A stretch of 64,000 nt of DNA, from NCBI GenBank assembly GCA_903845155.1, contig CAIMWN010000018.1, positions 5,594 to 69,593 of the forward strand, given 5' to 3'. A model generated the notes under the pieces. It worked only from the letters and a program-made list of their open reading frames with translations, was not told where the DNA came from and did not search any database. Source of the DNA: Oligoflexia bacterium (lineage in GTDB: Bacteria > Bdellovibrionota > UBA1018 > CAIMNF01). A program made the position numbers and the translations under genes. Below, one piece after another: positions 6,185-36,753 of this stretch; within the stretch, counting starts at the first letter, position 1, and each line of letters begins with the position of its first letter.

Positions 6185-6433
6185 TAAAATAGAGAACGAG
6201 CTGTTCTCTCAGTTGATCTCTCATTACGGTTAAAAATAGACTCCTATCGAATTGTGTATTTAGCCCAGGAGAATTGTTTGAATTGCTTTAAACCCATCTC
6301 GTTGATTCCCCGGCATTCTCTCAGTCCGCACGAGAGTCAATCAGTACGAACCTACGGCGACTCGGCGATTTTAGGAGAACGGTATGTTCTCTGAGTGGTT
6401 GACTCTAGTGACCGATCCATTCATAAGGTCTTT

Positions 6434-7366
6434 ATGAAAAACAGTAAAATAGTACCGAAATATGGAATAAATAAATCGATTTTGCTTTTGAGCCTATTCA
6501 TGAACGGCATCGCACTGGCCGATGGCTCTATCCATAGAATAAACTGCGATGAAAAACGTGCTGTGATTTTTGATATTGACGATACGCTTGTCGATACAAA
6601 TTATCGAACTTTGCATATTCTACAAAAAGCGGGGAAGGAGCTTCATCTCAATGCGCTGATTGAGCTTGAGTATCCAAAAGTCGATTTTTTTTGTTCAGTA
6701 ACAGTTAAAAACGCGGGAATTAAGGATCCGGCCCTACTGGAAAAAATCTGCGGCCATTTCGATCCTGATCCGAGAAAAAATACGATGTATCAAAGCGTCT
6801 GGGGAAAATCATTTTATAGCGATCCCGAGGAACTTCACTTCGATCATGTGATGGCTGGTGCTCCCGATTTCGTGAACAGGATCATGAAGGAAACTGATGC
6901 CAAGATCATTTATGTCACTGGCCGGAGCGAAGAGCAGCAAACCCAGGGTACAATCGAAGAATTGGCCTATTATGGCTTCCCAGGTTTCAATGGAGATCAA
7001 TCTGCTTGCGCAAGCTTGGTGATGAAACCACAGAGTTATCTGGGGGATGACACTTCATTCAAAAAAGCCATCACGATAGCTCTTCAGCAGACGGGCGTGA
7101 CGATTCTTGCCGCGTTTGATGACTCCGCTTCTAATGCAAATATGTTCAGAGATATTTTTCCGGCAAAGGTATTGGTCGTTAGACCAAACCGCAATGTTGC
7201 GGATACTGCTAAAAATAGGCCGGGTATCGAGCAAATCACTAACTATTACTTAAACGCTACTGTGGACGCGAAAACCGGTGTTCGCTCAGTGAGTTCGAAT
7301 GAAGACCAGTTAACTGACATGATTCAACGAGCGATTCGAATTGATACAGATGGGAGCTTGATATGA
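6434..7366 (+). CDS. Secreted HAD-superfamily phosphatase (class-C acid phosphatase / 5'-nucleotidase e(P4)-like)
   Basis: Signal peptide MKNSKIVPKYGINKSILLLSLFMNGIALA. HAD motif I is VIFDIDDTLVDTNY; IIYVTGRSE and a distal DD motif follow. The ORF-track start at 6395 would add a non-signal extension, so ATG 6434 is preferred. Stop overlaps the next gene by ATGA. Confidence 0.6.
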   Translation: MKNSKIVPKYGINKSILLLSLFMNGIALADGSIHRINCDEKRAVIFDIDDTLVDTNYRTLHILQKAGKELHLNALIELEYPKVDFFCSVTVKNAGIKDPALLEKICGHFDPDPRKNTMYQSVWGKSFYSDPEELHFDHVMAGAPDFVNRIMKETDAKIIYVTGRSEEQQTQGTIEELAYYGFPGFNGDQSACASLVMKPQSYLGDDTSFKKAITIALQQTGVTILAAFDDSASNANMFRDIFPAKVLVVRPNRNVADTAKNRPGIEQITNYYLNATVDAKTGVRSVSSNEDQLTDMIQRAIRIDTDGSLI

Positions 7367-8259
7367 AATCATATTTTGCCCGTCATATCGGAGTTGTTGC
7401 TCTCTGTTTATCATGGCCTACTATTTCATTTGCCTGGGGGACGGTTGGGCACTCAACGGTTGCATGGATTGCTTCGCAGCACTTAACGCCACAAGCAGCA
7501 TCTGAAGTATCTGCTTTGCTTGGGCCTGGGGGTTCCCCAGATCACTTGATGCCTGAGGCTGCATCTTGGGCAGACGAAATTCTGTCTCTGCCCCAATGGA
7601 AATCGACTTGGCCTTATCATTTTGCGGATCTTGTTAACCCTAACGATTACTACCACACTCCCATTCGAAAAGATGGAGATGCTGTTCAGGCTCTCATTTA
7701 CTTCGAAGACCTCATTCGGAACCAAGCGTCGAAATTGGATCAAAAAAGAATTGCCCTGAAGTTCTTAATCCACATCGTAGGCGACATTCATCAGCCGCTA
7801 CACTCTGGGCGACGTGAAGATCGTGGAGGTAATCTAATCAATGTGACCTGGTTTGGAGCGCCTATTGATCTCCACCATGTTTGGGATAATAAACTCATTG
7901 AGAAGTTTTGCATCGACAGTGGCATTTCAAATCAAATGCCGATTTGGAAGAGTCTTGGGACGACCGTTGAACGACAATTCCCAATCCGTCCTTATGTCGA
8001 AGACACTGCTACTTTCGTAAATTGGACGGAAGAATCTCACGCTTTGAACTCAGTTGCTTACAATATTGGAGATGGACACTTGGAGACGAGCTATTACATG
8101 CGCTCCATTTCGCCGGTAAATCAACGGCTGGCGCTTGCAGGGCAGCGGCTAGCAAAGTTGTTGAATAGAATTTTCGCTCAGAGCCCCTTCACTTCAGCCG
8201 AGCTCCAAATGAGGCAGAGAGTGCAGAGCCAATGTGGCGGCGAATGCGTACTTAAATGA
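7363..8259 (+). CDS. Secreted S1/P1-family nuclease
   Basis: Signal peptide, then the hallmark mature N-terminus WGTVGHSTVAWIASQ (P1 nuclease begins WGALGHATVAYVAQ). His/Asp zinc ligands are distributed as in nuclease P1. Confidence 0.8.
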   Translation: MKSYFARHIGVVALCLSWPTISFAWGTVGHSTVAWIASQHLTPQAASEVSALLGPGGSPDHLMPEAASWADEILSLPQWKSTWPYHFADLVNPNDYYHTPIRKDGDAVQALIYFEDLIRNQASKLDQKRIALKFLIHIVGDIHQPLHSGRREDRGGNLINVTWFGAPIDLHHVWDNKLIEKFCIDSGISNQMPIWKSLGTTVERQFPIRPYVEDTATFVNWTEESHALNSVAYNIGDGHLETSYYMRSISPVNQRLALAGQRLAKLLNRIFAQSPFTSAELQMRQRVQSQCGGECVLK

Positions 8260-10058
8260 TTAAGGAAATGAAAATGATTACAGTATTGATGATGTTTTTT
8301 GCGGTGTTAAATTCCAATTCTTTTGCACAAATGCCATCACTCACGTTGCAAGGTGAGTGGGAAGAAATAGGAAGAGCAGCAGCCAAAGCTGCTTCAGTGC
8401 CACGGTCTGAAAGTATGGCGGAGGTACTCAATCAGTTCATTTCTAAGCACATCGAACAGCTTTCGAGTTTTTCACCTATTAGTACAGTAGCAAAACTCTA
8501 TATTAATCAGACTGTTTATCGAAATCTTAAAAATTCACTGCCCGAAGAAGAGCGTGACATGCTTGCAGGCGTGAATAAGGAATGGAATGTTCCACAAAAA
8601 GGCCTTGAAAGGGCATTCTTAACGCCAGAGGCGATGAACAGCGTTTTGTTATTAGGGTCAGATCGTCATCGAGCCCTTTCTCCACTGCTCTCTTGTAGCT
8701 CCTTTTATGCTGCTCATGAACGAACCCAGTCTGGAGAGCGGATACTGGGTAGAAACTTGGATTTCCCCGGAGTAAACAGCCTTGACTACTATTCGTCTGT
8801 TTATTATTTTAATCGTCAAAACGCTTATAGAATACTCTCCATAGCACCGCAAGGTTTTCCGATTCCTGGAATCAGCGGCATGAATGAAAAGGGTCTCGTG
8901 CTTATTTTGCATGAAGCATATAGTGCGCAGGTTTCCAAAAGAGGCCGTCCAATTTTTTCAGTAAATCGTGAAGTGCTAGAAACGACTTCTACGATTGAGG
9001 AAGCGATTGAAGTTTATAAAAAGTACCAATATGAAGCTGGTTGGTTGGTACATTTAAGTGATCGCGATCCTAAAACGGGTCAAGCACGGTCGGCAATTGT
9101 TGAACTGGGGGGTGCTGGGGTAGATGTTCTCTGGGGTAAGGATTCATACTCAGTACTGACGAATTCTTATCGCAGTTCCAGGCAAAAATCTTTTGAGTTA
9201 TTTATTGCTCCAGGAGTTGAGATTCATAATCATGACCGCCTTCAGCGTTTAGATCAATTGGTGACTTCCGAAAAGATCGATTTGAGCCGTGCCTTTAATA
9301 TTCTAAGTGATTCTTATTCGCCCTATTCCGCTTCAATGGTCGATTATTCGGTAAGTTCCATTCGTGCAATTGATCAGGTTAATAGCATGGTTTTTCTTCC
9401 GGATCAGTTAAAAGTAATGGTATCAACTTCGGCTGATCCAGCCAGTAATGGTACATATTATGAATATTCGTTCTCACAGATGGATCAGAAATTAGCCCCA
9501 CGTTTAGTTTCGCCACAAAAAAATGATCTTATTTCTGAATCTCATCTGAAATTGGTTCAAGCCTATCTTTTTGATTTTCAGAAAGCTGACTTTATTCGGT
9601 CTGCAAAGCTGGAGATTGAATCTGACAAACTAGCGGTTGGCTGTGGGTTAAGTCTTTTGGCGGGGGCAGCTCATTTAAGATTAGATGAGATAGATGAAGC
9701 AAAATCTTCCTTGTTACGAGCAATTTCTTGTTCGAGTCTCAGTCCTCACCATCAAATTCTCGCACATTTTTATCTTGCCATGACTCACTGGGGCTTGGGA
9801 GATGTGCTATTAGCAAAAGAGGAGCTATCCTTAGTGATCCAAGGTGAGTCAGCGCTTTTAAATAAAACTGGAATTCCCGGTGATCGTACGCTGATCAAGT
9901 TATCACATTTACTGGTTAAGCGAATAGAGAAGGGAAGAGAGATTTCGAAGAAGGAGATCCATCAACTTGCGCGATTAGATATCAAGGTGATGGATAATCT
10001 CTATGGTTGGAATCTTTCTGGACGAGACCAAAAACCTATGAAGAGACTAAAAAAGTGA
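8256..10058 (+). CDS. Secreted Ntn-hydrolase (peptidase C45 / acyl-CoA:6-APA acyltransferase-like) with C-terminal helical repeats
   Basis: Signal peptide. About 100-aa pro-region then CSSFYA...GRNLDFP, the Cys-nucleophile plus GRN(L/W)D motif of C45/choloylglycine-type Ntn hydrolases. ATGA overlap with the nuclease gene. Confidence 0.55.
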   Translation: MIKEMKMITVLMMFFAVLNSNSFAQMPSLTLQGEWEEIGRAAAKAASVPRSESMAEVLNQFISKHIEQLSSFSPISTVAKLYINQTVYRNLKNSLPEEERDMLAGVNKEWNVPQKGLERAFLTPEAMNSVLLLGSDRHRALSPLLSCSSFYAAHERTQSGERILGRNLDFPGVNSLDYYSSVYYFNRQNAYRILSIAPQGFPIPGISGMNEKGLVLILHEAYSAQVSKRGRPIFSVNREVLETTSTIEEAIEVYKKYQYEAGWLVHLSDRDPKTGQARSAIVELGGAGVDVLWGKDSYSVLTNSYRSSRQKSFELFIAPGVEIHNHDRLQRLDQLVTSEKIDLSRAFNILSDSYSPYSASMVDYSVSSIRAIDQVNSMVFLPDQLKVMVSTSADPASNGTYYEYSFSQMDQKLAPRLVSPQKNDLISESHLKLVQAYLFDFQKADFIRSAKLEIESDKLAVGCGLSLLAGAAHLRLDEIDEAKSSLLRAISCSSLSPHHQILAHFYLAMTHWGLGDVLLAKEELSLVIQGESALLNKTGIPGDRTLIKLSHLLVKRIEKGREISKKEIHQLARLDIKVMDNLYGWNLSGRDQKPMKRLKK

Positions 10059-12219: not shown

Positions 12220-13074
12220 TTATTTAGTTGATTGCAGATGACAAGCGTGATCTAAAAATGCAAACACATCAGGGAACCAGATATTTACTGCGTGGGTATT
12301 AAAAGCATGGCCTTCTTTAGTAGTGGTTCCTTGCTTTGGATATATTTTCAATTCAAACTTCTTCCCCGCACTTTTCATTTCTGCGGAAAGCGCCCGACTG
12401 GGAGTCAGGTCATAGTCATTTTCTGCTTGAAAAAAGTAGATCGGGCACTTCACCATTCGAACACTCTTTTTAAGTAGTTTTTGGAGTTCGGGGCTTGACT
12501 GCCAACTGTCAGCGCCACCGGATGCATCAAAACCAGCGCAGAACGGTTCTTTAGTAGCGGCGAGAATAGATTCAATTCCACCAAAGGAATTTCCGCCCAC
12601 TGCGATACGTTTGTGATCAATGAAAGTTTGCTTTTTTAACCATGCGTAAGCGGCAAGTTGGTCATCGAGTTGTTCCGTCTTGAGAAGGCTGATCGTCTTG
12701 GTGGATGCCGCTTTCGCTCCCCCTGACCTTCCCGCTTTTTTTATTTCGTCACCGATATATGAACCCGAGTCTTCACTTAAGCCTTGGCCGCGGCGATAGG
12801 GCATGAAAAAGGCCCAGCCATGTTTGACAAAGTAGGGGGCGATTCTCGCGGCAGTTTGGCTGTTGATCATTTTCGCCCCTTTACCGTGATTGTAAAGGAT
12901 AGCGGGAAATGGACCTTTGCCGTCAGGTTTGTAGAGAACTCCACCTAAGGGTAATTTGCCAAGATAAAAATGAATGACATCTGGCATGAGTGCACGTTCT
13001 TCGGCTGCGAATGCAGGTGTTTCGAATTGCCGTGATGAGCACAACAAGAATAAAATGAAGATCGTCAATTTCAT
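12220..13074 (-). CDS. Secreted alpha/beta-hydrolase (dienelactone-hydrolase / S9-like)
   Basis: Signal peptide MKLTIFILFLLCSS. Nucleophile elbow GGNSFGG; downstream ENDYD and EGHAF complete a Ser-Asp-His triad. Confidence 0.65.
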   Translation of the reverse strand: MKLTIFILFLLCSSRQFETPAFAAEERALMPDVIHFYLGKLPLGGVLYKPDGKGPFPAILYNHGKGAKMINSQTAARIAPYFVKHGWAFFMPYRRGQGLSEDSGSYIGDEIKKAGRSGGAKAASTKTISLLKTEQLDDQLAAYAWLKKQTFIDHKRIAVGGNSFGGIESILAATKEPFCAGFDASGGADSWQSSPELQKLLKKSVRMVKCPIYFFQAENDYDLTPSRALSAEMKSAGKKFELKIYPKQGTTTKEGHAFNTHAVNIWFPDVFAFLDHACHLQSTK

Positions 13075-13165
13075 ATGGGTAGGGTATAGCACGTTTCAAT
13101 ACAAGTGGAAACCTGATGTCAGCTTAAACAACGCATTAAGAGTATTTTTGCTGAATAATGCGCCT

Positions 13166-13194
13166 TTGTTGGGAGTTCGTTTTAGTGATAAAAT
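13166..13194 (+). promoter_or_regulatory. Candidate sigma70 promoter placing the transcript start about 1-3 nt before the kinase ATG (leaderless-type)
   Basis: ttgttg (13166-13171), 17-nt spacer, taaaat (13189-13194). ATG at 13203 with no SD. Confidence 0.3.
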
Positions 13195-13202
13195 AGTTCA
13201 CA

Positions 13203-14780
13203 ATGAACGAACTTATTCTCACGGTGGATTTGGGTACCTCCGGACCTAAAGTGGCTCTCTTTGATCAACAAGCAAAGCTGCTTGCTTCGGCATTTGAAGA
13301 AATTCCACTTCTTCTTTTTGAAAATGGGGGTGCTGAGCAACGGCCCGCGGATTGGATCGGCGCAATCAAGCGTTGTTACTCGCAAATGATTTCTGAATCA
13401 AAAATTGACCCGAAACGGATCATTGCGTTGAATTGCACGTCACAATGGAGTGGGACGGTTGCGGTTGATCAATCGGGAACGCCTCTCATGAATTCCATCA
13501 TTTGGATGGATTCGCGAGGTGCAAGTTCGCTCAAAAAATTAAATCAATCTTTATTGAATGTCAGTGGTTACGATGCACTGAAACTACTTCAATGGCTTAG
13601 AATTACGGGTGGGGCACCCTCCATATCAGGTAAGGATTCCCTTGCTCATATTTTGTATATTAAAGATGAATTGCCCGAAATTTATTCGAAGACCTATAAG
13701 TTTCTTGAGCCTAAAGATTTTCTTAATCTTTACTTCAGTGGCCAATTTCTTTCTTCCTATGATGCAATTACGATGCACTGGGTGACGGATAATCGCGATA
13801 TTAATCATATTCAATATCACGATGGACTGCTCAAAATGGTGGGGCTGGATCGGGCAAAACTTCCTGACCTCGTCCCGACCAATTCGGTAGTGGGTAAGAT
13901 TAGGAGGGAAATCGCAGCGGAATTCGGCTTAAATGAAAATGTTCAACTGATCAGTGGAGCAGGCGATATTCACAGTGCCGCAGTAGGGTCGGGTGCGATT
14001 TTAGATTATCAAGCGCACCTTTACATCGGAACCTCGTCTTGGATTGTATATCACTCTCCTGTAAAGAAGACCGATGTCCTACACAATATCGGAACCATCC
14101 CTTCTGGGATTCCCGGGAAATATATGCTTGCCAATGAACAACAAACCGCAGGCGCGTGTCTGCCGTTTTTGCGTAATCAACTATTTTATCCAAAAGACGT
14201 TCTCGACTCGAGAGCGCCGCCAGAGAATTTTTACCTTCTTGCAGATCAACTCGTTGAAACGGTTGCTCCGGGGTCAGATGGTTTGGTGTTTTTACCCTGG
14301 CTTTATGGCGAACGTTCGCCTGTAGATGACGGAAGTGTGCGAGGCGGATTTATGAATTTGACCTTGTCTCATTCGCGAGCGCAGATGATTCGTGCAGTGC
14401 TGGAAGGCGTGGCGATGAATTCCAAGTGGCTGCTTCAACACGTTGAGAAATTGGCCGGAAGAACTTTTGACTCCATTAATTTTATTGGTGGCGGGGCAAA
14501 GAGTGCAACCTGGAGTCAGATTTTCGCCGATGTTTATGACCGCCCAATTCATGCCATGAAAGATCCCATACTTTGTAATAGTCGTGGCACCGCTATTTTA
14601 GCGCTATTAGCACTGAAAAGGATTGAGCTTGCCGATATTGGTAAGTTAGTGGACGTGCAAAAAGTCTTCAACCCACGTAAAGAGAATCGCTCTCTTTATG
14701 ATGACCGTTTTGAACGTTTTTTAGATTTATATAAAATGAATAAACCGTTTTTTAACAGAATGAATAAAAAATCAAAATGA
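13203..14780 (+). CDS. FGGY-family carbohydrate/polyol kinase
   Basis: N-terminal LTVDLGTSGPKVALFD and a conserved C-terminal FGGY region (INFIGGGAKS). 525 aa. Confidence 0.85.
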   Translation: MNELILTVDLGTSGPKVALFDQQAKLLASAFEEIPLLLFENGGAEQRPADWIGAIKRCYSQMISESKIDPKRIIALNCTSQWSGTVAVDQSGTPLMNSIIWMDSRGASSLKKLNQSLLNVSGYDALKLLQWLRITGGAPSISGKDSLAHILYIKDELPEIYSKTYKFLEPKDFLNLYFSGQFLSSYDAITMHWVTDNRDINHIQYHDGLLKMVGLDRAKLPDLVPTNSVVGKIRREIAAEFGLNENVQLISGAGDIHSAAVGSGAILDYQAHLYIGTSSWIVYHSPVKKTDVLHNIGTIPSGIPGKYMLANEQQTAGACLPFLRNQLFYPKDVLDSRAPPENFYLLADQLVETVAPGSDGLVFLPWLYGERSPVDDGSVRGGFMNLTLSHSRAQMIRAVLEGVAMNSKWLLQHVEKLAGRTFDSINFIGGGAKSATWSQIFADVYDRPIHAMKDPILCNSRGTAILALLALKRIELADIGKLVDVQKVFNPRKENRSLYDDRFERFLDLYKMNKPFFNRMNKKSK

Positions 14781-16288
14781 AAAATATTGAAAGTCTGAAT
14801 GGCATCTTCCGTTACTTCCCTCATTGGCTAGTTCGCATGATTGAAAACCTGATGCAAAAAATCCCCAGCGTAAAGCTCATGATTGATGCAGAAAATGAAA
14901 AGATGATGGCTCCTCTCGAGGCATCCCTCAAACCTTATCGAGGTAAATTTGATAGCTTCGCTGCCTTACCGGCCACTTCGCGCCCGAGAAAGACTATTCT
15001 CGAAGATATTCAGAAAATGAATCAAATTGAATCGGATCGTTGGAAGGATGGCTATGTATCGGGCGGGATCTATCATGGGGATCAAGAGCATATTGATTTC
15101 TTGAATCAAGTTTACGCGCTTCATTCGCAAAGTAATCCACTCCATAGTGATCTATTTCCTTCTGCTACGAAATTTGAAGCCGAAATCGTTTCGATGGTGG
15201 CAGGCATGCTGGGGGGAGGGACGCCGAGTGCTCCGTCGGTAGTGGGAACAGTTACTTCAGGTGGTACCGAGAGTATTCTTTTAGCCATGAAAACTTATCG
15301 AGATCGGGCGAGGGCCGAACGCGGAATTTATGAACCAGAAATTATTGTCGCAGAGACCGCGCATGCCGCTTTCGACAAAGCTTCGCAATATTTTGGAATC
15401 AACATGGTCAAGGTTCCAGTAGATTCGAACTTTAAAATGGACCTCTCGCGGGTAAAACGTGCAATTGGCAGCAAAACGGTGGCACTCGTAGGATCATCTC
15501 CGTCATTTCCTCATGGGATAATCGATCCTATTGAAGGCCTTTCAGAATTGGCCACCAAGTATAAATTGGGTTTGCATGTGGACGCATGTTTGGGCGGGTT
15601 TATTCTTCCCTTTGCTCGCAAGCTTGGGGCACCTGTGCCTGCCTTTGATTTTAATTTACCGGCTGTCACTTCGATGAGTGTCGATACTCATAAATATGGG
15701 TTCGCTGCAAAGGGGACCTCGGTAGTTCTGTATCGCACTCCTGAACTCCGACATTATCAGTATTACACCACCACGGAGTGGCCAGGCGGTTTGTATTTTT
15801 CACCTACCCTTGCGGGAAGTAGACCAGGGGCACTGAGTGCTGCTTGTTGGGCGGCAATGTTATCGATGGGTGAAGAGGGTTACTTGCGTAGCACGCGCGC
15901 CATTCTTGATACTGCGGCAAAGATACGGGAGGGCCTGAAATCAATTCCTGAACTGCGTTTATTGGGAGATCCAATTTGGATATTTGCCCTCGCTTCAGAC
16001 ACCGTAAATATTTATGAAGTTTTAGATCAAATGAATCAGCGGCACTGGAGTTTGAACGGACTCCATAAGCCTTCCTGTTTTCATTTTGCGTTGACCTTAC
16101 GTCAAACTCAGCCGGGAGTGGCAGAGCGATTCTTGCAAGACCTGAAAGATTCTGTTGCGTATGTGAAGAAAAACCCGAGCCCGAATGAAGGCCTCGCACC
16201 CGTGTACGGGATGGCGGCATCGCTTCCATTTCGCGGTATTTTAAGTGACGTGCTTAAAAAATATCTCGATATTGTTTATAAGGTTTAG
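14777..16288 (+). CDS. Sphingosine-1-phosphate-lyase-like PLP-dependent enzyme (group II decarboxylase fold)
   Basis: TSMSVDTHKYGFAAKGTSVVLYR...YQYYTTTEWPGGLYFSPTLAGSRPG aligns almost residue-for-residue with the human SGPL1 active-site region ([20 protein letters not shown]...). GGTESILLA precedes it. ATGA overlap with the kinase. Confidence 0.85.
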   Translation: MKNIESLNGIFRYFPHWLVRMIENLMQKIPSVKLMIDAENEKMMAPLEASLKPYRGKFDSFAALPATSRPRKTILEDIQKMNQIESDRWKDGYVSGGIYHGDQEHIDFLNQVYALHSQSNPLHSDLFPSATKFEAEIVSMVAGMLGGGTPSAPSVVGTVTSGGTESILLAMKTYRDRARAERGIYEPEIIVAETAHAAFDKASQYFGINMVKVPVDSNFKMDLSRVKRAIGSKTVALVGSSPSFPHGIIDPIEGLSELATKYKLGLHVDACLGGFILPFARKLGAPVPAFDFNLPAVTSMSVDTHKYGFAAKGTSVVLYRTPELRHYQYYTTTEWPGGLYFSPTLAGSRPGALSAACWAAMLSMGEEGYLRSTRAILDTAAKIREGLKSIPELRLLGDPIWIFALASDTVNIYEVLDQMNQRHWSLNGLHKPSCFHFALTLRQTQPGVAERFLQDLKDSVAYVKKNPSPNEGLAPVYGMAASLPFRGILSDVLKKYLDIVYKV

Positions 16289-24100: not shown

Positions 24101-25561
24101 GTGCGAAATACGATAGTTTTATACTTAAACGGCATACGCTGCGAGCTGAGCGGAGACCTCGCTTTCATGACGGTGTCCGATTATCTCCGCTATCAAAAGG
24201 GCCTTACTGGTACCAAGGTAGTATGTGCTGAAGGCGACTGCGGTGCTTGCACAGTGCTCGTGTCGCGGATGGTGAATGGCAAACTTGGATCATACCAATC
24301 GATCAACTCCTGTATTAGTTTTATGTATCTGCTCGATTTGTGTCACCTCATCACGGTAGAGGGCTTAAAAAAAGAGGAGACACTTCATCCGGTTCAAAAG
24401 GCAATGCTTGATTCTAATGGCGCTCAATGCGGGTATTGCACACCTGGATTTATTTGTGCAATGGCTGGCCTGACTGAAGATGCAAAAAATGGGAAATTTA
24501 TTTTGGAAGAAAAGCGAGTTAAAAACTATTTGACTGGCAACCTTTGTCGCTGCACCGGTTACGACTCTATTATTCAAGCCGGTTGCTCGGTGAATGCTGA
24601 AGCGGCTCCTTCATTGCGCGTACTGTACCAGGATGAAGAAATTGAAAAGGATTTAAAATCACTTTCGGGCCAAACAGTGTGCCTGAAAGGCGCCCAGCAA
24701 GAGTTTTGTGCCCCGGCGACTTTATCTGAAGCGCTGACATTAAAAAGTGTAAATGTGGATCTGAAGCTCACCTCAGGAGCGACAGATCTAGGTGTACTTT
24801 CTAATAAGGGAAAATTAAAATTATTAAAAACGCTCACCCTTAATCATGTGGATGAGCTGTATTCGGTAAAAGAGGACACATCTTCACTGATGGTTGGAGC
24901 TAAAGCCTCGTTGACAGCGGTGGAAGAGGCCTGCCGAACACTTTTCCCGGCATTTTCAAACTACCTTCACATTTTTGCTTCGCCTCAAATTAAAAATGCA
25001 GGCACCCTCATTGGTAATGTGGTGAATGCATCTCCGATTGCCGACACCATTCCATTTTTAAAAGTAGCAGAAGCAGAAATAGGATTGAGTAGCGTTCGCG
25101 GAGAAAGAGTGCTCAATCTCAATCAGTTTTTTAAACCCGGCTACAAACAGCTCGATCTTTTGCCTGATGAACTCGTGACGCATGTGAAAATTCCAAAATC
25201 CCATGCAAAGTTTAAACTTTATAAAGTTTCCACGCGCAAAGACCTAGATATTTCTACCGTTACCTTTGCCGTTCGTTTTGAGTTAGTAGGTGACATCATT
25301 AAAAATATTTCTTTTGCATTCGGGGGTGTGGGGCCGAGCGTACTGCGCATGACTGAACTTGAGAAACAAGCAATTGGCAAAAAATTCGAGCCCGCACTCT
25401 TTAAGGCGCTTGCTCTAAATTTGCAGTCTATGATCACACCGCTGAGTGATGTTCGCGGAAGTGCGGACTACCGTCAACTACTGTGTCACAATCTGATGCT
25501 TAAGTTTTGTGACGAAGTGACGGCTGAGCTGGGGCTCCAATCTGCGGGGATTTCGGTATGA
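24101..25561 (+). CDS. xdhA: Xanthine dehydrogenase small subunit (2Fe-2S + FAD-binding)
   Basis: Two [2Fe-2S] cysteine clusters (CAEGDCGACTV; CGYCTPGF...CRCTGY) followed by a FAD-binding CO-dehydrogenase-flavoprotein-like domain. GTG start. ATGA overlap with xdhB. Confidence 0.9.
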   Translation: MRNTIVLYLNGIRCELSGDLAFMTVSDYLRYQKGLTGTKVVCAEGDCGACTVLVSRMVNGKLGSYQSINSCISFMYLLDLCHLITVEGLKKEETLHPVQKAMLDSNGAQCGYCTPGFICAMAGLTEDAKNGKFILEEKRVKNYLTGNLCRCTGYDSIIQAGCSVNAEAAPSLRVLYQDEEIEKDLKSLSGQTVCLKGAQQEFCAPATLSEALTLKSVNVDLKLTSGATDLGVLSNKGKLKLLKTLTLNHVDELYSVKEDTSSLMVGAKASLTAVEEACRTLFPAFSNYLHIFASPQIKNAGTLIGNVVNASPIADTIPFLKVAEAEIGLSSVRGERVLNLNQFFKPGYKQLDLLPDELVTHVKIPKSHAKFKLYKVSTRKDLDISTVTFAVRFELVGDIIKNISFAFGGVGPSVLRMTELEKQAIGKKFEPALFKALALNLQSMITPLSDVRGSADYRQLLCHNLMLKFCDEVTAELGLQSAGISV

Positions 25562-27900
25562 GTGTCGGGAATAGTATTCCTCATGATTCAGGCTTGGGTC
25601 ATGTCTGTGGCGAAAGTGTTTTTATTGATGATCGTGCTGAAACTCGTGGTGAAGTACACGTGGGCTTAGTCTGTAGTTCCATTGCGTGCGGTGATTTAAT
25701 TGAAATAGATGCAAGTGAGGCACTCAGGCATCCCGATTGTTTAGGGGTATTTACCGCCAAGGATTTCGTGCATAAAAAATGGGGAACCATTGTCCATGAC
25801 CAACCATTTTTGGTGGAAGACAAAATAAATTATATGAGTGAGCCCGTTTGCATTGTGGCTAGCCGCACACGGGATTCCATTGAAGCAATTAAACATTTAG
25901 TGAAGTTACAGGAAAAAGCGGCAGCAGGTATTTTTACCATTCAAGATGCCAGGAAAAATCAGTCTGTGATTTACCGCGCACTGAAGCCTTTTGTACAAGG
26001 AAACGTGGATCAAGCATTGAAGATGGCCCCTCATAAGCTCACCGGAACGTTTACGGTGGGTGGGCAAGAACATTTTTATATGGAATCGCAAGCGGCGGTG
26101 ATTTACCCACTTGAGAATGGGCAACTTGAAATTCATTCATCAAGCCAACATCCCAGTGAAACTCAGCGTACCGTTGCCGAGGCTTTAGGTTTATCGCTTC
26201 ATCAAGTGGTGTGTGTGGTGAAGCGTATGGGCGGGGGTTTTGGTGGCAAGGAATCTCAGGCAGGCCCTATTGCGGCTTATGCTGCATTGGTCGCTCAAAA
26301 GTTAAAGAAACCTGCTCGACTCATTCTCACTAAAGATGAAGACATGAAAATTACGGGAAAAAGACACCCTTTTCAGAATGAGTACGAAGTCGCTTTCGAC
26401 GATGACGGTAAAATTCTAGGAGTGAAGGTACTACTTCAATCAGACGGAGGAGCGTACGCGGATCTTTCTGCCTCTATTCTCGATCGGGCGATGTTTCACT
26501 TCGATGGAGTCTATTATTTAGAGAACGTGCACATCGATGCTGTTTGTTATCGAACGAACAATCATTCGAATACTGCATTCAGAGGTTTTGGTGGTCCACA
26601 GGGAAACATGACCATGGAAAGCATTATCGAAGATATCGCACATTTTTTGAAAAAGGATGCAGCCGTCGTGCGACTTCGAAACCTTTATCAAGGTCCGAAC
26701 GTCAAAACCCCGTACGGACAAAATCTTGAAAACAATATGCTGCCTGAGATTTTTAGACAACTCATCACTACTTCGGAGTATGAAAAGCGCCGAGTGGAGA
26801 TTGATAAGGAAAATCTAAAAAAAACAGGGGTGCTTCGCGGGATTTCCATCACCGGCACAAAGTTTGGAATAGCCTTTACTGCGCGTTTCCTTAATCAAGG
26901 GAATGCCCTCGTCAATTTGCATTTGGATGGGACTGTACAGGTGAGCACTGGTGCGACTGAAATGGGCCAAGGCGTGAACACTAAGATTCAGCAAATCGTA
27001 GCGCATGGTTTTGGGATTGAATCCGGATCAGTTCAAGTGATGACGACTTCTACAGAGAAAAATCATAATACCTCGCCTACGGCAGCATCCAGTGGTTCTG
27101 ATATTAATGGGGCGGCAGCGCTGAAAGCGGTAAACAAGATTAAGGTGAATTTAATAGGGCTTGCTCGTAAGAAATTCGCCGGTGAAGTGAGTTCCGCATT
27201 GAAAGAGTATGAGTTAGAGCAGAACGCGGAAACCGTGCCTTTAGATCCGAATTTTATCTTTCAACATGGTAAAGTAGTGGAACTTTCCACCAAAAAGGAA
27301 ATCTCTTTAAAAGAGCTCATTAGCATCGCTTATCAAAATCGTGTTTCTTTAGGTGCCTATGCACATTTTAAAACTGGTGGCCTTGGGTTTGATAAAGAGA
27401 AAGTGGAAGGCAAAGCGTTCAATTATTTTACGCAAGGAATGGCCGTGAGCGAAGTTTCTGTTGATGAATATACCGGTGAAGTGAAGGTTTTACGTGTAGA
27501 TCTATTGATGGACCTGGGTCGTTCTATTAATCCCGGTATTGATCGCGGGCAAGTGGCGGGAGGCTTTGTGCAAGGGATGGGGTGGGTCACTACTGAAAAT
27601 CTTTTTTACGATGAAAGACGAAATCTTATTTCTCATTCTCCGACTACTTATAAAATCCCAAATATTCAAGATACGCCACGCGAATTTAATATTCATTTTA
27701 TTGAAAACCTAAATAACGACTGTAATGTGTACGGTTCAAAAGCCGTGGGGGAGCCACCACTCTTGTTGGGGTCAAGTGTGTGGACAGCCGTAAAACATGC
27801 GCTCAGTTATCGGTCGAAAAGCAACATGGTAAACCTCACATCTCCTGCGACGGGCGAAGTGGTGTTAATGGAATTGACTCGCTTAAAGAGGAGCCCTTGA
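25558..27900 (+). CDS. xdhB: Xanthine dehydrogenase molybdopterin-binding large subunit
   Basis: 780 aa; aldehyde-oxidase/xanthine-dehydrogenase a/b hammerhead and MoCo-binding blocks (GGGFGGKE, GQGxxTK). Confidence 0.9.
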   Translation: MSVGNSIPHDSGLGHVCGESVFIDDRAETRGEVHVGLVCSSIACGDLIEIDASEALRHPDCLGVFTAKDFVHKKWGTIVHDQPFLVEDKINYMSEPVCIVASRTRDSIEAIKHLVKLQEKAAAGIFTIQDARKNQSVIYRALKPFVQGNVDQALKMAPHKLTGTFTVGGQEHFYMESQAAVIYPLENGQLEIHSSSQHPSETQRTVAEALGLSLHQVVCVVKRMGGGFGGKESQAGPIAAYAALVAQKLKKPARLILTKDEDMKITGKRHPFQNEYEVAFDDDGKILGVKVLLQSDGGAYADLSASILDRAMFHFDGVYYLENVHIDAVCYRTNNHSNTAFRGFGGPQGNMTMESIIEDIAHFLKKDAAVVRLRNLYQGPNVKTPYGQNLENNMLPEIFRQLITTSEYEKRRVEIDKENLKKTGVLRGISITGTKFGIAFTARFLNQGNALVNLHLDGTVQVSTGATEMGQGVNTKIQQIVAHGFGIESGSVQVMTTSTEKNHNTSPTAASSGSDINGAAALKAVNKIKVNLIGLARKKFAGEVSSALKEYELEQNAETVPLDPNFIFQHGKVVELSTKKEISLKELISIAYQNRVSLGAYAHFKTGGLGFDKEKVEGKAFNYFTQGMAVSEVSVDEYTGEVKVLRVDLLMDLGRSINPGIDRGQVAGGFVQGMGWVTTENLFYDERRNLISHSPTTYKIPNIQDTPREFNIHFIENLNNDCNVYGSKAVGEPPLLLGSSVWTAVKHALSYRSKSNMVNLTSPATGEVVLMELTRLKRSP

Positions 27901-35433: not shown

Positions 35434-36753
35434 ATGCCCGGGCAAAATTACCGCTTCTTTCTCGCTAGTATTTTAAATCCAAAAAACGACACCAAGTGCG
35501 ATTATTTTGCGCATGGGATGTTGGTCGTTTGCGATCAGGGTAAACAGAGCTTCATTGAGGCCGTTCTCCCGTTCAATAAGGGCATGAAAAAATACTCAAG
35601 ACTCATGACCACCGCCAATACCACTGATTTTGGGAGTGCGGTGATCATGCCCGGATTCTTTGATATGCACTTTCATTGGGTGCAAGATGATGTTCGCACG
35701 CAACCCAAGGACTCTCTGCTTGAGTGGCTTGAAAAGTATACCTTTCCCGCTGAAATGAAATTTGCAGATCCAAAATATGCTGCAAGTGAGGCCAAGATTT
35801 TTTTCAAACGCTTGAGTCGAGTTGGCACATTGGGTGGCGCTTGTTATAGTTCTATTCACGGTCCGGCGCTGGAGTGCGCGATGAGTGAAGTGAAGGGGGA
35901 TTTCGTCATTGGGAATGTGCTGATGGATCAGTTTTCTCCGCCTGAGCTTACTCAGACGGAGGCTGAGGCAATTGCGCTCACCAAGAAGATGATTCGAAAG
36001 TTTGGGAGGAGATTTGCGTTTACCCCTCGCTTTGCAATCAGCACCTCGCCAGCGCTGATGAAAAAAGGAAGTAAGCTTGCCGACCAAGCTCATTGTTTTA
36101 AACAAAGTCACTTGTCAGAAAATCCGGCAGAAATTGAATTTGTTTTGAAACTCTATAAAAAGTTACCGGGTTACAAAAAGTGTTCCTCTTATACAGATAT
36201 ATACAAAAAGACAGGAATGCTCGGCAAGCGTTCACTGATGGGGCATGGTATTCATCTTTCCAGTGCAGAATTAAAAATGCTCCATGAAACAAAAACCACG
36301 CTCATTCATTGTCCAACCTCGAACGCGCCGATTCGAGAAAAGGGTCTTGGTTCTGGGCTTTTTGATTTCAAACGGGTTGAAAGAGCGAAAGTGCGTTGGG
36401 CACTTGGTTCCGATATTGGTGGCGGCCCCTTTTTATCGATGTTTGATGTGATGAGAAGTTTTGTGATTCAAAATAAGCGAGCCAAGGTGAAAGGTGCCAC
36501 TTTTGTAAAGGCGTTGTACCGTTCCACGCTCTCGGGTGCCGAGGTTTTTGGAATTGCTGCAAAGACTGGAAATTTAAATCGGAAGAAGGAAGTAAATTTT
36601 ATCGTCGTGCCGTTGAATGCTTCAAAGCCCCCCCATTCCGCGGAGGATGCATTGAAGCGCATTATCAATGCCCCAAAGGCGAAGCGAGAGTTGTTTGATC
36701 AGCTGCCGAGCGTAGTTTACTACCGCGGCAAACCTATCGTGAATCAAGCGTAG
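35434..36753 (+). CDS. guaD: Guanine deaminase
   Basis: Collinear with E. coli GuaD: PGFFDMHFHWVQ, SLLEWLEKYTFPAE, FTPRFAISTS, HLSENPAEIEFV, HCPTSN, LGSDIGGG. Confidence 0.85.
   Translation: MPGQNYRFFLASILNPKNDTKCDYFAHGMLVVCDQGKQSFIEAVLPFNKGMKKYSRLMTTANTTDFGSAVIMPGFFDMHFHWVQDDVRTQPKDSLLEWLEKYTFPAEMKFADPKYAASEAKIFFKRLSRVGTLGGACYSSIHGPALECAMSEVKGDFVIGNVLMDQFSPPELTQTEAEAIALTKKMIRKFGRRFAFTPRFAISTSPALMKKGSKLADQAHCFKQSHLSENPAEIEFVLKLYKKLPGYKKCSSYTDIYKKTGMLGKRSLMGHGIHLSSAELKMLHETKTTLIHCPTSNAPIREKGLGSGLFDFKRVERAKVRWALGSDIGGGPFLSMFDVMRSFVIQNKRAKVKGATFVKALYRSTLSGAEVFGIAAKTGNLNRKKEVNFIVVPLNASKPPHSAEDALKRIINAPKAKRELFDQLPSVVYYRGKPIVNQA

What the first reader, a model, noticed from the sequence alone, without database searches (positions are those of the whole stretch)
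13166..16288. FGGY kinase translationally coupled to a sphingosine-1-phosphate-lyase homologue, apparently from a leaderless-type promoter
The second gene matches the SGPL1 active-site region almost residue-for-residue (SVDTHKYGFAAKGTSVVLYR...YQYY...GSRPG). Characterised sphingoid-base kinases are DAGK-fold, not FGGY. An FGGY kinase 4-bp-coupled to an SPL implies phosphorylate-then-cleave catabolism of a sphingoid base or another amino-polyol by a non-canonical kinase. This is relevant because Bdellovibrio-like bacteria make unusual sphingolipids. The only promoter candidate ends 8 nt before the kinase ATG and no SD is present, suggesting a leaderless mRNA.
Basis: partly seen in the sequence, partly recalled or inferred. 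Interest (0 to 1): 0.5.

Follow-up and report, generated by a model that had tools for sequence, protein, structure and literature searches.

The report
Conserved FGGY kinase plus sphingosine-phosphate-lyase pair
A sugar-kinase-fold enzyme and a sphingosine-1-phosphate-lyase homologue overlap by four bases here and sit side by side in at least seven bacterial phyla, which points to an undescribed "phosphorylate then cleave" route for sphingoid bases or similar amino-alcohols that uses a kinase unrelated to known sphingosine kinases.

Summary
The gene pair is real. A 525-aa FGGY kinase (13203-14780) overlaps by ATGA a 503-aa lyase (14777-16288). The lyase is 58% identical to the crystallised, S1P-cleaving Symbiobacterium enzyme StSPL and keeps every catalytic, PLP-binding and phosphate-binding residue.

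The kinase belongs to no curated sugar-kinase equivalog (XylB model 270 bits, cutoff 380; about 25% identity to solved XylB/GntK). It does belong to a tight family, 44-65% identical across phyla.

Adjacency is strong in both directions. The lyase lies directly downstream in 52 of 73 informative kinase loci. The kinase lies directly upstream in 60 of 64 informative lyase loci. Close relatives of StSPL carry the pair in the inverted order.

No paper in the searched library links the two families. All characterised bacterial sphingoid or ceramide kinases are DAGK-type.

The sequential kinase-then-lyase reading is therefore well supported. Whether the substrate is a long-chain sphingoid base or a soluble 2-amino-polyol remains open.

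The leaderless-mRNA inference is plausible in geometry but untested and not conserved, and lack of an SD is the norm in this window. The "Bdellovibrio-like" origin could not be verified.

The parts
13166..13194 (+). Promoter-like site TTGTTG-17 nt-TAAAAT. The -10 element ends 8 nt before the kinase ATG. It is a candidate only.
   Evidence: Read from the sequence and found in my own scan. Not reported by the stricter tool scan. Not conserved in L167.
13203..14780 (+). FGGY-fold kinase, 525 aa. It belongs to a distinct, tightly conserved subfamily with motifs GGAEQRPxDW, QW[SC]GT and WVTDNRD. The proposed role is amino-alcohol (sphingoid-base) 1-kinase.
   Evidence: DLGTS (residues 9-13) and GAGD (D255) align with the corresponding xylulokinase motifs.
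14777..14780 (+). ATGA overlap: the lyase start codon overlaps the kinase stop codon (translational coupling).
   Evidence: The same 4-bp overlap occurs in the closest relative L167. In most other lineages the genes are separated by roughly 6-270 nt.
14777..16288 (+). Sphingosine-1-phosphate-lyase family PLP enzyme, 503 aa. It has a basic, non-transmembrane N-terminal segment, with the catalytic core from about residue 44.
   Evidence: Conserved residues are K306 (PLP), K312, D269, C271, H196, H305, G163/T164 and S348, plus the phosphate site Y99, N120 and H123.
16285..16288 (.). The stop codons of the lyase (+) and of the convergent 812-aa pectate-lyase-like gene (-) overlap, which leaves no intergenic room for a terminator. 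This marks the 3' boundary of the two-gene unit.

Best explanation
The two genes form a self-contained two-step catabolic or detoxifying module for a 2-amino-1,3-diol.

- Step 1 (inferred): the FGGY-fold kinase transfers phosphate from ATP to the primary C1 hydroxyl next to the C2 amine. This is the same chemistry its relatives perform on glycerol or ketoses.
- Step 2 (family chemistry established, substrate inferred): the PLP lyase binds the 1-phosphate in its conserved Tyr/Asn/His/Lys pocket. It forms the external aldimine on K306 and cleaves the C2-C3 bond by retro-aldol reaction, giving phosphoethanolamine and an aldehyde.
- Most likely substrate: a long-chain sphingoid base (sphinganine, sphingosine or phytosphingosine type), made by the cell or scavenged from other organisms. 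The kinase would then be a non-homologous replacement for DAGK-type sphingosine kinase.
- Expression: the ATGA overlap couples translation of the two proteins in this lineage.

Shown: gene identities, residue conservation, and two-way conserved adjacency. Inferred: kinase substrate, order of reactions, lipid nature of the substrate.
For: 1. Lyase identity.
- 58% identity over 460 aa to StSPL, with E 3e-188.
- All residues that the structural reviews list for PLP binding, the PLP sandwich and substrate-phosphate binding are conserved (PMC10243590 and PMC6148460; residue check).
- StSPL cleaves S1P in vitro and in blood, and its natural role is stated to be unknown (PMC3148216).

2. Conserved pairing.
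- The lyase lies directly downstream on the same strand in 52 of 83 kinase loci, or 52 of 73 loci with enough downstream sequence.
- The kinase lies directly upstream in 60 of 80 lyase loci from metagenomes, or 60 of 64 with enough upstream sequence.
- Lyases 82-87% identical to StSPL, and a Symbiobacteriaceae MAG, have the orthologous kinase (44-50% identical, WVTDNRD motif) 3-15 nt downstream. The order is inverted but the adjacency is kept.
- Pairwise distances of the two proteins correlate: r = 0.83, Mantel p = 0.001, 75 pairs.

3. The kinase is not a known sugar kinase.
- It falls below all NCBIfam cutoffs and is 24-25% identical to the nearest solved structures.
- Within the family it is 44-65% identical across phyla, with 98 near-invariant positions.

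4. Every other context of the kinase family involves amine chemistry: a GSA-aminomutase-like aminotransferase, an FLVCR-like (choline/ethanolamine-type) MFS transporter, a saccharopine-dehydrogenase-like gene, M20 amidohydrolases and GNATs.

5. Hints of a lipid tail.
- StSPL has a long hydrophobic tunnel (PMC6148460).
- Four positions differ between wild-type StSPL and an engineered variant (Y249, L344, F346, L497). In 75 kinase-linked lyases they are F 70/75, L 67/75, F 63/75 and L 72/75. In the window they are F244, L339, F341 and L493.
- The gene directly after the lyase is a DUF1295 membrane protein in 4 loci, an acyl-CoA dehydrogenase in L134, an aldo-keto reductase in L012 and L014, and an Fe-alcohol dehydrogenase in M. 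xanthus.
Against: - No FGGY kinase is known to use a lipid (my own knowledge of the family), and nothing here measures activity.
- The kinase model could not be inspected for a hydrophobic groove because its coordinates are not exposed.
- Many carriers are not known to make sphingolipids: Anaerolineae, Desulfobacterota, Spirochaetota, Symbiobacterium.
- A sister clade of the kinase has no conserved residue difference. It is wired to enzymes typical of small phosphorylated sugars and to an FLVCR-like transporter.
- About 29% of informative kinase loci lack an adjacent lyase. Four lyase loci and one close lyase relative (P0130) lack an adjacent kinase.
- That the four "tunnel" positions line the tunnel is my inference from the engineered variant, not a structural measurement.
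Confidence: 0.5

Rival explanations
1. The logic is the same (kinase, then retro-aldol lyase), but the physiological substrate is a small soluble 2-amino-polyol, for example a 2-amino-2-deoxy-alditol or a short 2-amino-1,3,4-triol. The products would be phosphoethanolamine and a short hydroxy-aldehyde. S1P cleavage by StSPL would then be a side activity.
For: - All characterised FGGY substrates are small and water-soluble (my own knowledge of the family).
- The closest structures are gluconate, xylulose and glycerol kinases.
- Sister-clade kinases with the same conserved residues sit in operons with an FLVCR-like MFS (E 6.5e-38 to human FLVCR1), a GSA-aminomutase-like aminotransferase, an MtnW-like RuBisCO-like protein and a FucA/MtnB-like class II aldolase. 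These enzymes act on small 1-phospho-2-keto compounds.
- A hybrid operon KIN-AT3-ALD2-ALD2-like-SPL exists in L014 and L015.
- The pair is common in lineages without known sphingolipids.
Against: - The hydrophobic tunnel of StSPL, and the hydrophobic residues kept at four presumed tunnel positions in 75 paired lyases.
- StSPL efficiently degrades C18 S1P.
- Lipid-type neighbours in several lineages: a membrane DUF1295 protein and acyl-CoA dehydrogenases.
- I know of no abundant natural soluble 2-amino-1,3-diol that would explain so wide a distribution (inference).
Confidence: 0.3
2. The module is not catabolic. It supplies phosphoethanolamine (for phosphatidylethanolamine or envelope decoration) or long-chain aldehydes, or it tunes levels of a phosphorylated sphingoid signal.
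For: - The lyase reaction yields phosphoethanolamine, which feeds glycerophospholipid synthesis (PMC6148460).
- One deltaproteobacterial lineage embeds the pair between a PAS/HD-GYP protein and a Ser/Thr kinase-TPR protein, which suggests signalling control.
Against: - Bacteria usually make phosphatidylethanolamine through phosphatidylserine decarboxylase (my own knowledge).
- No phosphoethanolamine transferase or cytidylyltransferase recurs next to the pair.
- Recurrent aldehyde and alcohol oxidoreductases point to disposal of the aldehyde.
Confidence: 0.08
3. The adjacency is incidental: an ordinary xylulokinase or gluconokinase sits next to an unrelated PLP decarboxylase-fold enzyme.
For: Automatic annotations call the kinase "xylulokinase" and the lyase "glutamate/tyrosine decarboxylase-like" or "aminotransferase class V-fold". 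The best NCBIfam hit of the kinase is XylB.
Against: - Adjacency in 71% of informative kinase loci and 94% of informative lyase loci, across at least 7 phyla and in both gene orders.
- Correlated divergence of the two proteins.
- The XylB score is below its cutoff.
- No xylose isomerase or sugar-operon partner recurs next to the pair.
Confidence: 0.03
4. Sub-claim on expression: the operon is transcribed from TTGTTG-17-TAAAAT as a leaderless or near-leaderless mRNA.
For: - The -10 element ends 8 nt before the ATG, so a start 5-9 nt downstream would fall within about 3 nt of the A of the ATG.
- No SD is present.
- It is the only site of that quality inside the 110-nt spacer.
- The organism has a classical long RpoD.
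Against: - An equal-scoring site at 13027-13056 would give a leader of about 140 nt.
- The -35 element matches only 3 of 6 positions.
- Most genes in the window lack an SD, so its absence is not diagnostic.
- In the 79%-identical relative L167 the best site ends 18 nt before the ATG.
Confidence: 0.3

Closest known systems
Eukaryotic long-chain-base degradation: sphingosine / LCB kinase (SphK1/2, Lcb4/5) followed by S1P lyase (SGPL1, Dpl1p)
   Same: The proposed two-step logic is the same: phosphorylate C1-OH, then PLP retro-aldol cleavage to phosphoethanolamine plus aldehyde. The lyase is a true homologue (E 1e-121 to the human and yeast enzymes).
   Different: The kinase is FGGY / actin-like ATPase fold, not DAGK/GGDG fold. 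The lyase has no transmembrane helix. The genes form an operon. The kinase substrate is untested.
StSPL, the Symbiobacterium thermophilum S1P lyase (PDB 3MAD, 3MAU)
   Same: 58% identical with all functional residues conserved. Its close relatives carry the same kinase partner.
   Different: The gene order is inverted in Symbiobacteriaceae. The kinase partner is not mentioned in the StSPL papers and reviews I read in the library.
Bacterial DAGK-type sphingolipid kinases: P. gingivalis dhSphK1 (PMC9045371) and Caulobacter ceramide kinase CpgB (PMC10331486)
   Same: The proposed substrate class and the phosphorylation position are the same as for dhSphK1.
   Different: There is no sequence or fold relationship: Pfam finds only FGGY_N and FGGY_C. 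The word "lyase" does not occur in the dhSphK1 paper.
FGGY kinases XylB, GntK and GlpK
   Same: The fold and ATP/catalytic motifs are shared: DxGTS, GAGD with D255, GGGA.
   Different: Identity is 20-25%. Scores are below the equivalog cutoffs. The substrate loop reads QW[SC]G where xylulokinase has QMHG. There is an insertion of about 13 residues at 113-135 with invariant G122, Y123, K127 and W131. The genomic partner is different.
Amino-alcohol kinase plus PLP phospho-lyase pairs, such as aminopropanol kinase with aminopropanol-phosphate phospho-lyase in mycobacteria, or ETNPPL (recalled from my own knowledge, not tested here)
   Same: Both activate an amino-alcohol by O-phosphorylation so that a PLP enzyme can break it down.
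   Different: Those kinases are APH-type and those PLP enzymes are class-III phospho-lyases that eliminate phosphate. Here the bond broken is C2-C3.

Membership tests
FGGY carbohydrate kinase family | Both Pfam domains (FGGY_N and FGGY_C) score above their gathering thresholds | tested here: met
   141.4 bits against 28.8, and 94.2 bits against 27. The AF2 model matches FGGY structures with TM-scores of 0.72-0.80 (normalised to the model) and 0.76-0.85 (normalised to the target).
FGGY carbohydrate kinase family | N-terminal DxGT(S/T) phosphate-binding motif and the catalytic Asp in the G-x-G-D motif | tested here: met
   DLGTS at residues 9-13 and GAGD with D255 align with the xylulokinase motifs. 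Both are invariant in 81 family members.
Xylulokinase (XylB equivalog) | Score at or above the curated equivalog cutoff | tested here: not met
   TIGR01312 scores 269.8 against 380.25. PRK15027 scores 159 against 912. GntK, LsrK, AraB, GlpK, FucK and RhaB are all far below their cutoffs.
Xylulokinase (XylB equivalog) | Genomic association with xylose isomerase or a pentose operon | tested here: not met
   No recurrent neighbour in 167 loci was identified as a xylose-isomerase or pentose-operon gene. The dominant neighbour is the lyase.
Sphingosine-1-phosphate lyase family | Closer to characterised SPLs than to group II decarboxylases | tested here: met
   E-values from 3e-188 to 7e-65 against six SPLs with solved structures, compared with 1.5e-23 for MfnA.
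Sphingosine-1-phosphate lyase family | PLP lysine, second catalytic lysine, PLP phosphate cup, PLP sandwich and substrate-phosphate site (StSPL K311, K317, G168, T169, H310, S353, H201, C276, D274, Y105, N126, H129) | tested here: met
   The window enzyme has K306, K312, G163, T164, H305, S348, H196, C271, D269, Y99, N120 and H123. A103 becomes G97.
Sphingosine-1-phosphate lyase family | Cleavage of sphingoid-base 1-phosphates to phosphoethanolamine plus fatty aldehyde | not testable with these tools
   Shown only for the homologue StSPL (PMC3148216).
DAGK-type sphingosine / ceramide kinases | DAGK catalytic domain with the GGDG ATP motif | tested here: not met
   Pfam finds only FGGY domains in the kinase. 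The GGDG-family relationship of the known enzymes comes from PMC10331486.
Leaderless mRNA | Transcription start at or within a few nt of the start codon | not testable with these tools
   Only the geometry is known: the -10 element ends 8 nt before the ATG. A rival site exists, and the arrangement is not conserved in L167.

The most novel reading that the evidence does not exclude
A distinct FGGY-fold kinase family is the missing, non-homologous long-chain-base (sphingoid) kinase of bacteria. Relatives occur in some Asgard archaeal MAGs. Together with StSPL-type lyases it would form a widespread, horizontally mobile two-gene module that lets organisms eat or detoxify sphingoid bases, including many that make no sphingolipids. 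It would be the first lipid-phosphorylating member of the FGGY family, and it would give StSPL-type lyases their long-sought physiological context.
Probability: 0.45. Interest if true: 0.75.

Novelty: new variant of a known kind. Interest (0 to 1): 0.62.

Why it matters
- Bacterial S1P lyases, including the structural model StSPL, have no established physiological substrate source. In the searched library, every bacterial sphingoid or ceramide kinase described is DAGK-type.
- A conserved FGGY partner gives a concrete, cheap biochemical test: one kinase assay plus a coupled lyase assay.
- If the substrate is a sphingoid base, the FGGY family would extend from sugars to lipids. Environmental sphingolipid turnover would gain a marker gene pair found in sludge, soil and sediment lineages, and thousands of "xylulokinase" and "decarboxylase" genes would be re-annotated.
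- If the substrate is instead a soluble amino-polyol, the pair points to an unrecognised widespread metabolite with two alternative downstream routes.

Tried and rejected
- Naming the organism. Exact-sequence cluster look-ups of the kinase, lyase, RpoN, DnaG and others returned no names. The genome scan returned no relative above 61% identity. The taxon is left unresolved.
- Literature. Searches for FGGY or xylulokinase together with S1P lyase, Myxococcus with S1P lyase, sphinganine-1-phosphate aldolase with operon, RuBisCO-like protein with FGGY, and FGGY with sphingo* found nothing relevant.
- Apparent long "fusion" ORFs of the lyase or kinase (L042, L028, L079). L042 is an artefact of a masked N run; I did not inspect L028 and L079, which look like ORF over-extension. 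None is a real fusion as far as checked.
- SDR cluster c5 as a 3-ketosphinganine reductase. PDB hits are generic FabG and 11-beta-HSD types, so there is no specific support.
- The class-III aminotransferase of the sister operon as an ethanolamine-phosphate phospho-lyase. It is GSA-aminomutase-like instead.
- Conserved protein c7. I suspected a zinc phospholipase C / P1-nuclease-like motif (HYLADLGNPFH), but it has no Pfam, NCBIfam or PDB profile hit.
They are not used as evidence because the patterns were recalled, not checked.
- Inspecting the kinase model for a lipid groove.
- Dpp/Opp-type ABC genes near the pair in four loci. They are not in the same transcription unit and are too few to count.


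Full report
**1. Observation**

The window holds two co-directional ORFs.
- ORF 13203-14780 (525 aa) carries the FGGY_N and FGGY_C domains.
- ORF 14777-16288 (503 aa) is a PLP enzyme of the Pyridoxal_deC fold.
- They overlap in the sequence ATGA. The lyase ATG is at 14777-14779 and the kinase TGA at 14778-14780.
- The start of the kinase is unambiguous. It is the first start codon after an in-frame stop, and the conserved DLGTS motif begins at residue 9.

The flanking genes are on the opposite strand.
- Upstream lies a secreted alpha/beta hydrolase (12220-13092).
- Downstream lies an 812-aa pectate-lyase-like protein. Its stop codon overlaps the lyase stop at 16285-16288.
- The pair is therefore a free-standing two-gene unit with a 110-nt upstream spacer.

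**2. The lyase**

- Against all PDB sequences, the best matches are the six sphingosine-1-phosphate lyases with solved structures: StSPL 3e-188, human 1.4e-121, yeast 6.7e-121, Burkholderia 1.1e-118, Leishmania-type 4.7e-115 and Legionella 7.4e-65. The nearest non-SPL, the MfnA decarboxylase, scores 1.5e-23.
- Identity to StSPL is 58% over 460 residues.
- Two reviews list the functional residues of StSPL (PMC10243590; PMC6148460). Each has its counterpart in the window protein: K306, K312, D269, C271, H196, H305, G163, T164, S348, Y99, N120 and H123. The only change is A103 to G97.
- The conserved phosphate site means the substrate carries a phosphate or a similar anionic group.
- StSPL cleaves S1P in vitro and in blood. 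Its authors write that its natural function "is still unknown" (PMC3148216).
- NCBIfam has no model that captures this family. The best hit is MfnA, below its cutoff. This explains names such as "aminotransferase class V-fold" among the homologues.

**3. The kinase**

- The best curated model is XylB at 269.8 bits, below the 380.25 cutoff. All other equivalogs are far below theirs.
- The best solved relatives are xylulose and gluconate kinases (E about 1e-39 to 1e-36).
- An AlphaFold model (pLDDT 84, pTM 0.88) superposes on them at 24-25% identity.
- In contrast, homologues of about 520-530 aa that are 52-79% identical are abundant in metagenomes, and relatives 48-61% identical occur in many phyla.
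- Ninety-eight positions are at least 97% invariant among 81 members.
- ATP-binding and catalytic motifs are intact, so it should be an active kinase.
- The loop that contacts the sugar reads QW[SC]G where xylulokinase has QMHG. An insertion of about 13 residues (113-135) carries invariant residues.
- I conclude that it is a distinct orthologous group on the XylB/GntK side of the FGGY family, not a member of a characterised clade.

**4. Co-occurrence**

*Starting from the kinase.*
- A scan of one genome per species found at least 575 relatives. The best 80 loci come from Chitinophagales, Flavobacteriales, Anaerolineae and other Chloroflexota, Myxococcota (including Myxococcus xanthus), Desulfobacterota, Spirochaetota, a Gammaproteobacteria MAG and Thorarchaeota.
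- tblastn finds the lyase directly downstream on the same strand in 52 of 83 loci, or 52 of 73 with at least 1.6 kb of downstream sequence.
- Clustering of all neighbouring ORFs shows that no other gene family comes close to this frequency.

*Starting from the lyase.*
- In 80 metagenomic loci, the kinase is directly upstream in 60. Only 4 loci with room upstream lack it, so the figure is 60 of 64.

*Starting from StSPL.*
- Lyases 82-87% identical to StSPL, and one from a Symbiobacteriaceae MAG, are followed 3-15 nt downstream by the orthologous kinase. The order is inverted.

*Joint evolution.*
- Distances between the kinases and between the lyases of 75 pairs correlate: r = 0.83, Mantel p = 0.001.
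- The 4-bp overlap itself is specific to a few lineages. It recurs in the 79%-identical relative L167. Elsewhere the genes are typically 6-270 nt apart.

**5. What the substrate might be**

*A second genomic context for the kinase.*
- The neighbour-joining tree places the lyase-linked kinases over most of the family.
- One derived clade (Syntrophaceae, Smithella and other Desulfobacterota) has a different operon. It comprises an FLVCR-like MFS transporter, a TetR regulator, the kinase, a GSA-aminomutase-like class-III aminotransferase, an MtnW-like RuBisCO-like protein, an unknown protein and a FucA/MtnB-like class II aldolase.
- Thorarchaeotal members sit next to a saccharopine-dehydrogenase-like gene.
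- No alignment position is conserved in one context and conserved-but-different in the other. The head group recognised is therefore probably the same.
- A hybrid operon in L014 and L015 (kinase, aminotransferase, aldolase, aldolase-like, lyase) links the two routes.
- Chemically, both routes fit a 1-phospho-2-amino-3-hydroxy (or 3,4-dihydroxy) compound. It could be cleaved at C2-C3 by the lyase. Alternatively it could be transaminated to a 1-phospho-2-ketose-like compound and then handled by methionine-salvage-like enzymes. This is inference.
- Other recurrent neighbours, M20 amidohydrolases and GNAT acetyltransferases, also act on amines.

*Evidence that the tail is a lipid (suggestive only).*
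- StSPL has a long hydrophobic tunnel.
- Four residues differ between wild-type StSPL and a 514-aa variant in UniRef. I take this variant to be the inhibitor-binding "surrogate". These four positions are hydrophobic in nearly all 75 kinase-linked lyases.
- The gene right after the lyase is a DUF1295 membrane protein in four loci and an acyl-CoA dehydrogenase in L134. Acyl-CoA dehydrogenases lie within 5 kb in six more loci.
- Non-orthologous aldehyde and alcohol oxidoreductases flank the lyase in several lineages: an aldo-keto reductase in L012 and L014, an Fe-ADH in M. xanthus, and Zn-ADH and SDR genes elsewhere. These are expected for any aldehyde product.

*Evidence against a lipid tail.*
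- No FGGY kinase is known to use a lipid.
- Many carriers are not known sphingolipid producers.
- The sister operon looks like small-molecule metabolism.

**6. Mechanism and likelihood**

| Reading | Probability |
|---|---|
| The two enzymes act in sequence on a 2-amino-1,3-diol (kinase, then lyase) | about 0.85 |
| The physiological substrate is a long-chain sphingoid base | about 0.5 |
| The substrate is a soluble amino-polyol | about 0.3 |
| The module is biosynthetic or signalling | about 0.08 |
| The adjacency is incidental | about 0.03 |

**7. Promoter and leaderless claim**

A start at or next to the A of the ATG is therefore geometrically reasonable.
- It is not the only candidate. TTGCCG-18-TAAAAT at 13027-13056 scores the same and is the one the tool lists.
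- Sites of this quality occur 23 times in the window.
- Only about 10 of 46 long ORFs have an SD-like motif, so a missing SD does not single out this gene.
- In the closest relative the best site ends 18 nt before the ATG.
- The claim remains a hypothesis for 5'-end mapping.

**8. Organism**

- No source names the contig.
- The window encodes DnaG, a 618-aa RpoD of the proteobacterial type (691 bits against a 555 cutoff) and RpoN. Bacteroidota, which have short RpoD proteins (my own knowledge), are therefore excluded.
- It also encodes many secreted hydrolases: an S1/P1 nuclease, a HAD acid phosphatase, a C45/AAT Ntn-hydrolase, an astacin and an alpha/beta hydrolase. This is compatible with a predatory or scavenging lifestyle.
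- "Bdellovibrio-like" is plausible but unverified. The argument from Bdellovibrio sphingolipids adds little, because the pair is spread far beyond sphingolipid producers.

**9. Comparison with what is known, and novelty**

- The logic mirrors eukaryotic LCB kinase plus S1P lyase.
- The lyase is a family member by every sequence test available.
- The kinase is a member of the FGGY family. It is not a member of the xylulokinase equivalog or of the DAGK-type sphingosine-kinase family.
- The bacterial sphingoid and ceramide kinases described in the library, dhSphK1 and CpgB, are DAGK-type.
- Searches for FGGY or xylulokinase together with S1P lyase found no bacterial study. Subscription-only papers are not covered.
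- I rate the finding a new variant of a known kind, with interest 0.62. It is a strong, widely conserved genomic association with a simple decisive experiment, but the substrate is still open.

Noticed in passing
L034, L045, L047, L060, L065, L068, L074; second kinase copy in L071 (e.g. L068:6520-13577): Kinases of the same family, in Syntrophaceae, Smithella and other Desulfobacterota, sit in a different conserved operon. It comprises an FLVCR-like MFS transporter, TetR, the kinase, a GSA-aminomutase-like class-III aminotransferase, an MtnW-like RuBisCO-like protein, an unknown 356-aa protein and a FucA/MtnB-like class II aldolase. This looks like an undescribed pathway for the same or a similar phosphorylated amino-alcohol.
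   Followed up: partly
L068:12507-13577 and its 5 aligned orthologues (alignment A3): A conserved protein of about 356 aa in that operon, with many invariant residues including the motif HYLADLGNPFH. It has no Pfam, NCBIfam or PDB profile hit.
   Followed up: partly
L014:7923-15056 and L015: A hybrid operon in two Bacteroidetes MAGs: kinase, class-III aminotransferase, class II aldolase, aldolase-like, lyase, aldo-keto reductase. It joins the two contexts.
   Followed up: partly
L048, L075, L080 (two are titled Thorarchaeota; L048 and L077 are titled uncultured archaeon): Archaeal MAG contigs encode kinases about 50% identical to the window kinase. They lie next to a saccharopine-dehydrogenase-like gene and near a RuBisCO-like protein, with no lyase adjacent. 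I did not check whether these contigs are correctly binned.
   Followed up: no
L072, L112, L124, L135, L137, L150, L155, L161: One deltaproteobacterial lineage has the conserved order PAS/HD-GYP protein, kinase, lyase, Ser/Thr protein kinase with TPR repeats, LysM protein. This suggests regulatory embedding of the pair.
   Followed up: no
L107, L132, L141, L142 (e.g. L142:2517-3344): A DUF1295 membrane protein lies immediately downstream of the lyase. From memory, not tested here, DUF1295 belongs to the steroid-reductase / ICMT-like clan. It may act on an enal or other hydrophobic product.
   Followed up: partly
L030, L039, L084, L085; also L085, L086 and the P0003 contig: M20 amidohydrolase genes (up to four copies in L030) and GNAT acetyltransferases recur beside the pair in Chloroflexota and Symbiobacterium-like contigs. 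An N-acylated precursor of the kinase substrate is conceivable.
   Followed up: no
P0130 contig; L088, L089: The lyases most similar to the window lyase (66-72% identical) are among the few without an adjacent kinase. P0130 is preceded by Fer4 and CCG-domain proteins and followed by a TonB-dependent receptor.
   Followed up: no
window 6395-10058: A run of genes for a HAD-type acid phosphatase, an S1/P1 nuclease and a 600-aa AAT/C45 Ntn-hydrolase-like protein. The last has an N-terminal hydrophobic, signal-like segment read by eye. It lies 3-7 kb upstream of the kinase. The Ntn-hydrolase could be a linear-amide hydrolase, but this was not examined.
   Followed up: no
window 16285-16288: The convergent lyase and pectate-lyase-like genes share overlapping stop codons (TTAG), so no intergenic terminator can exist between them.
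   Followed up: no
window 24101-27900, 35434-36753, 43416-44897, 48439-52192: A xanthine-dehydrogenase molybdopterin subunit (818 bits, just below the 849.5 cutoff), a guanine-deaminase-like protein, rpoN, and a dnaG-rpoD pair. These were used only to constrain the taxon.
   Followed up: partly
window-wide: SD-like motifs precede only about 10 of 46 long ORFs when first-start-codon calls are used. This suggests generally weak SD usage in this organism.
   Followed up: partly
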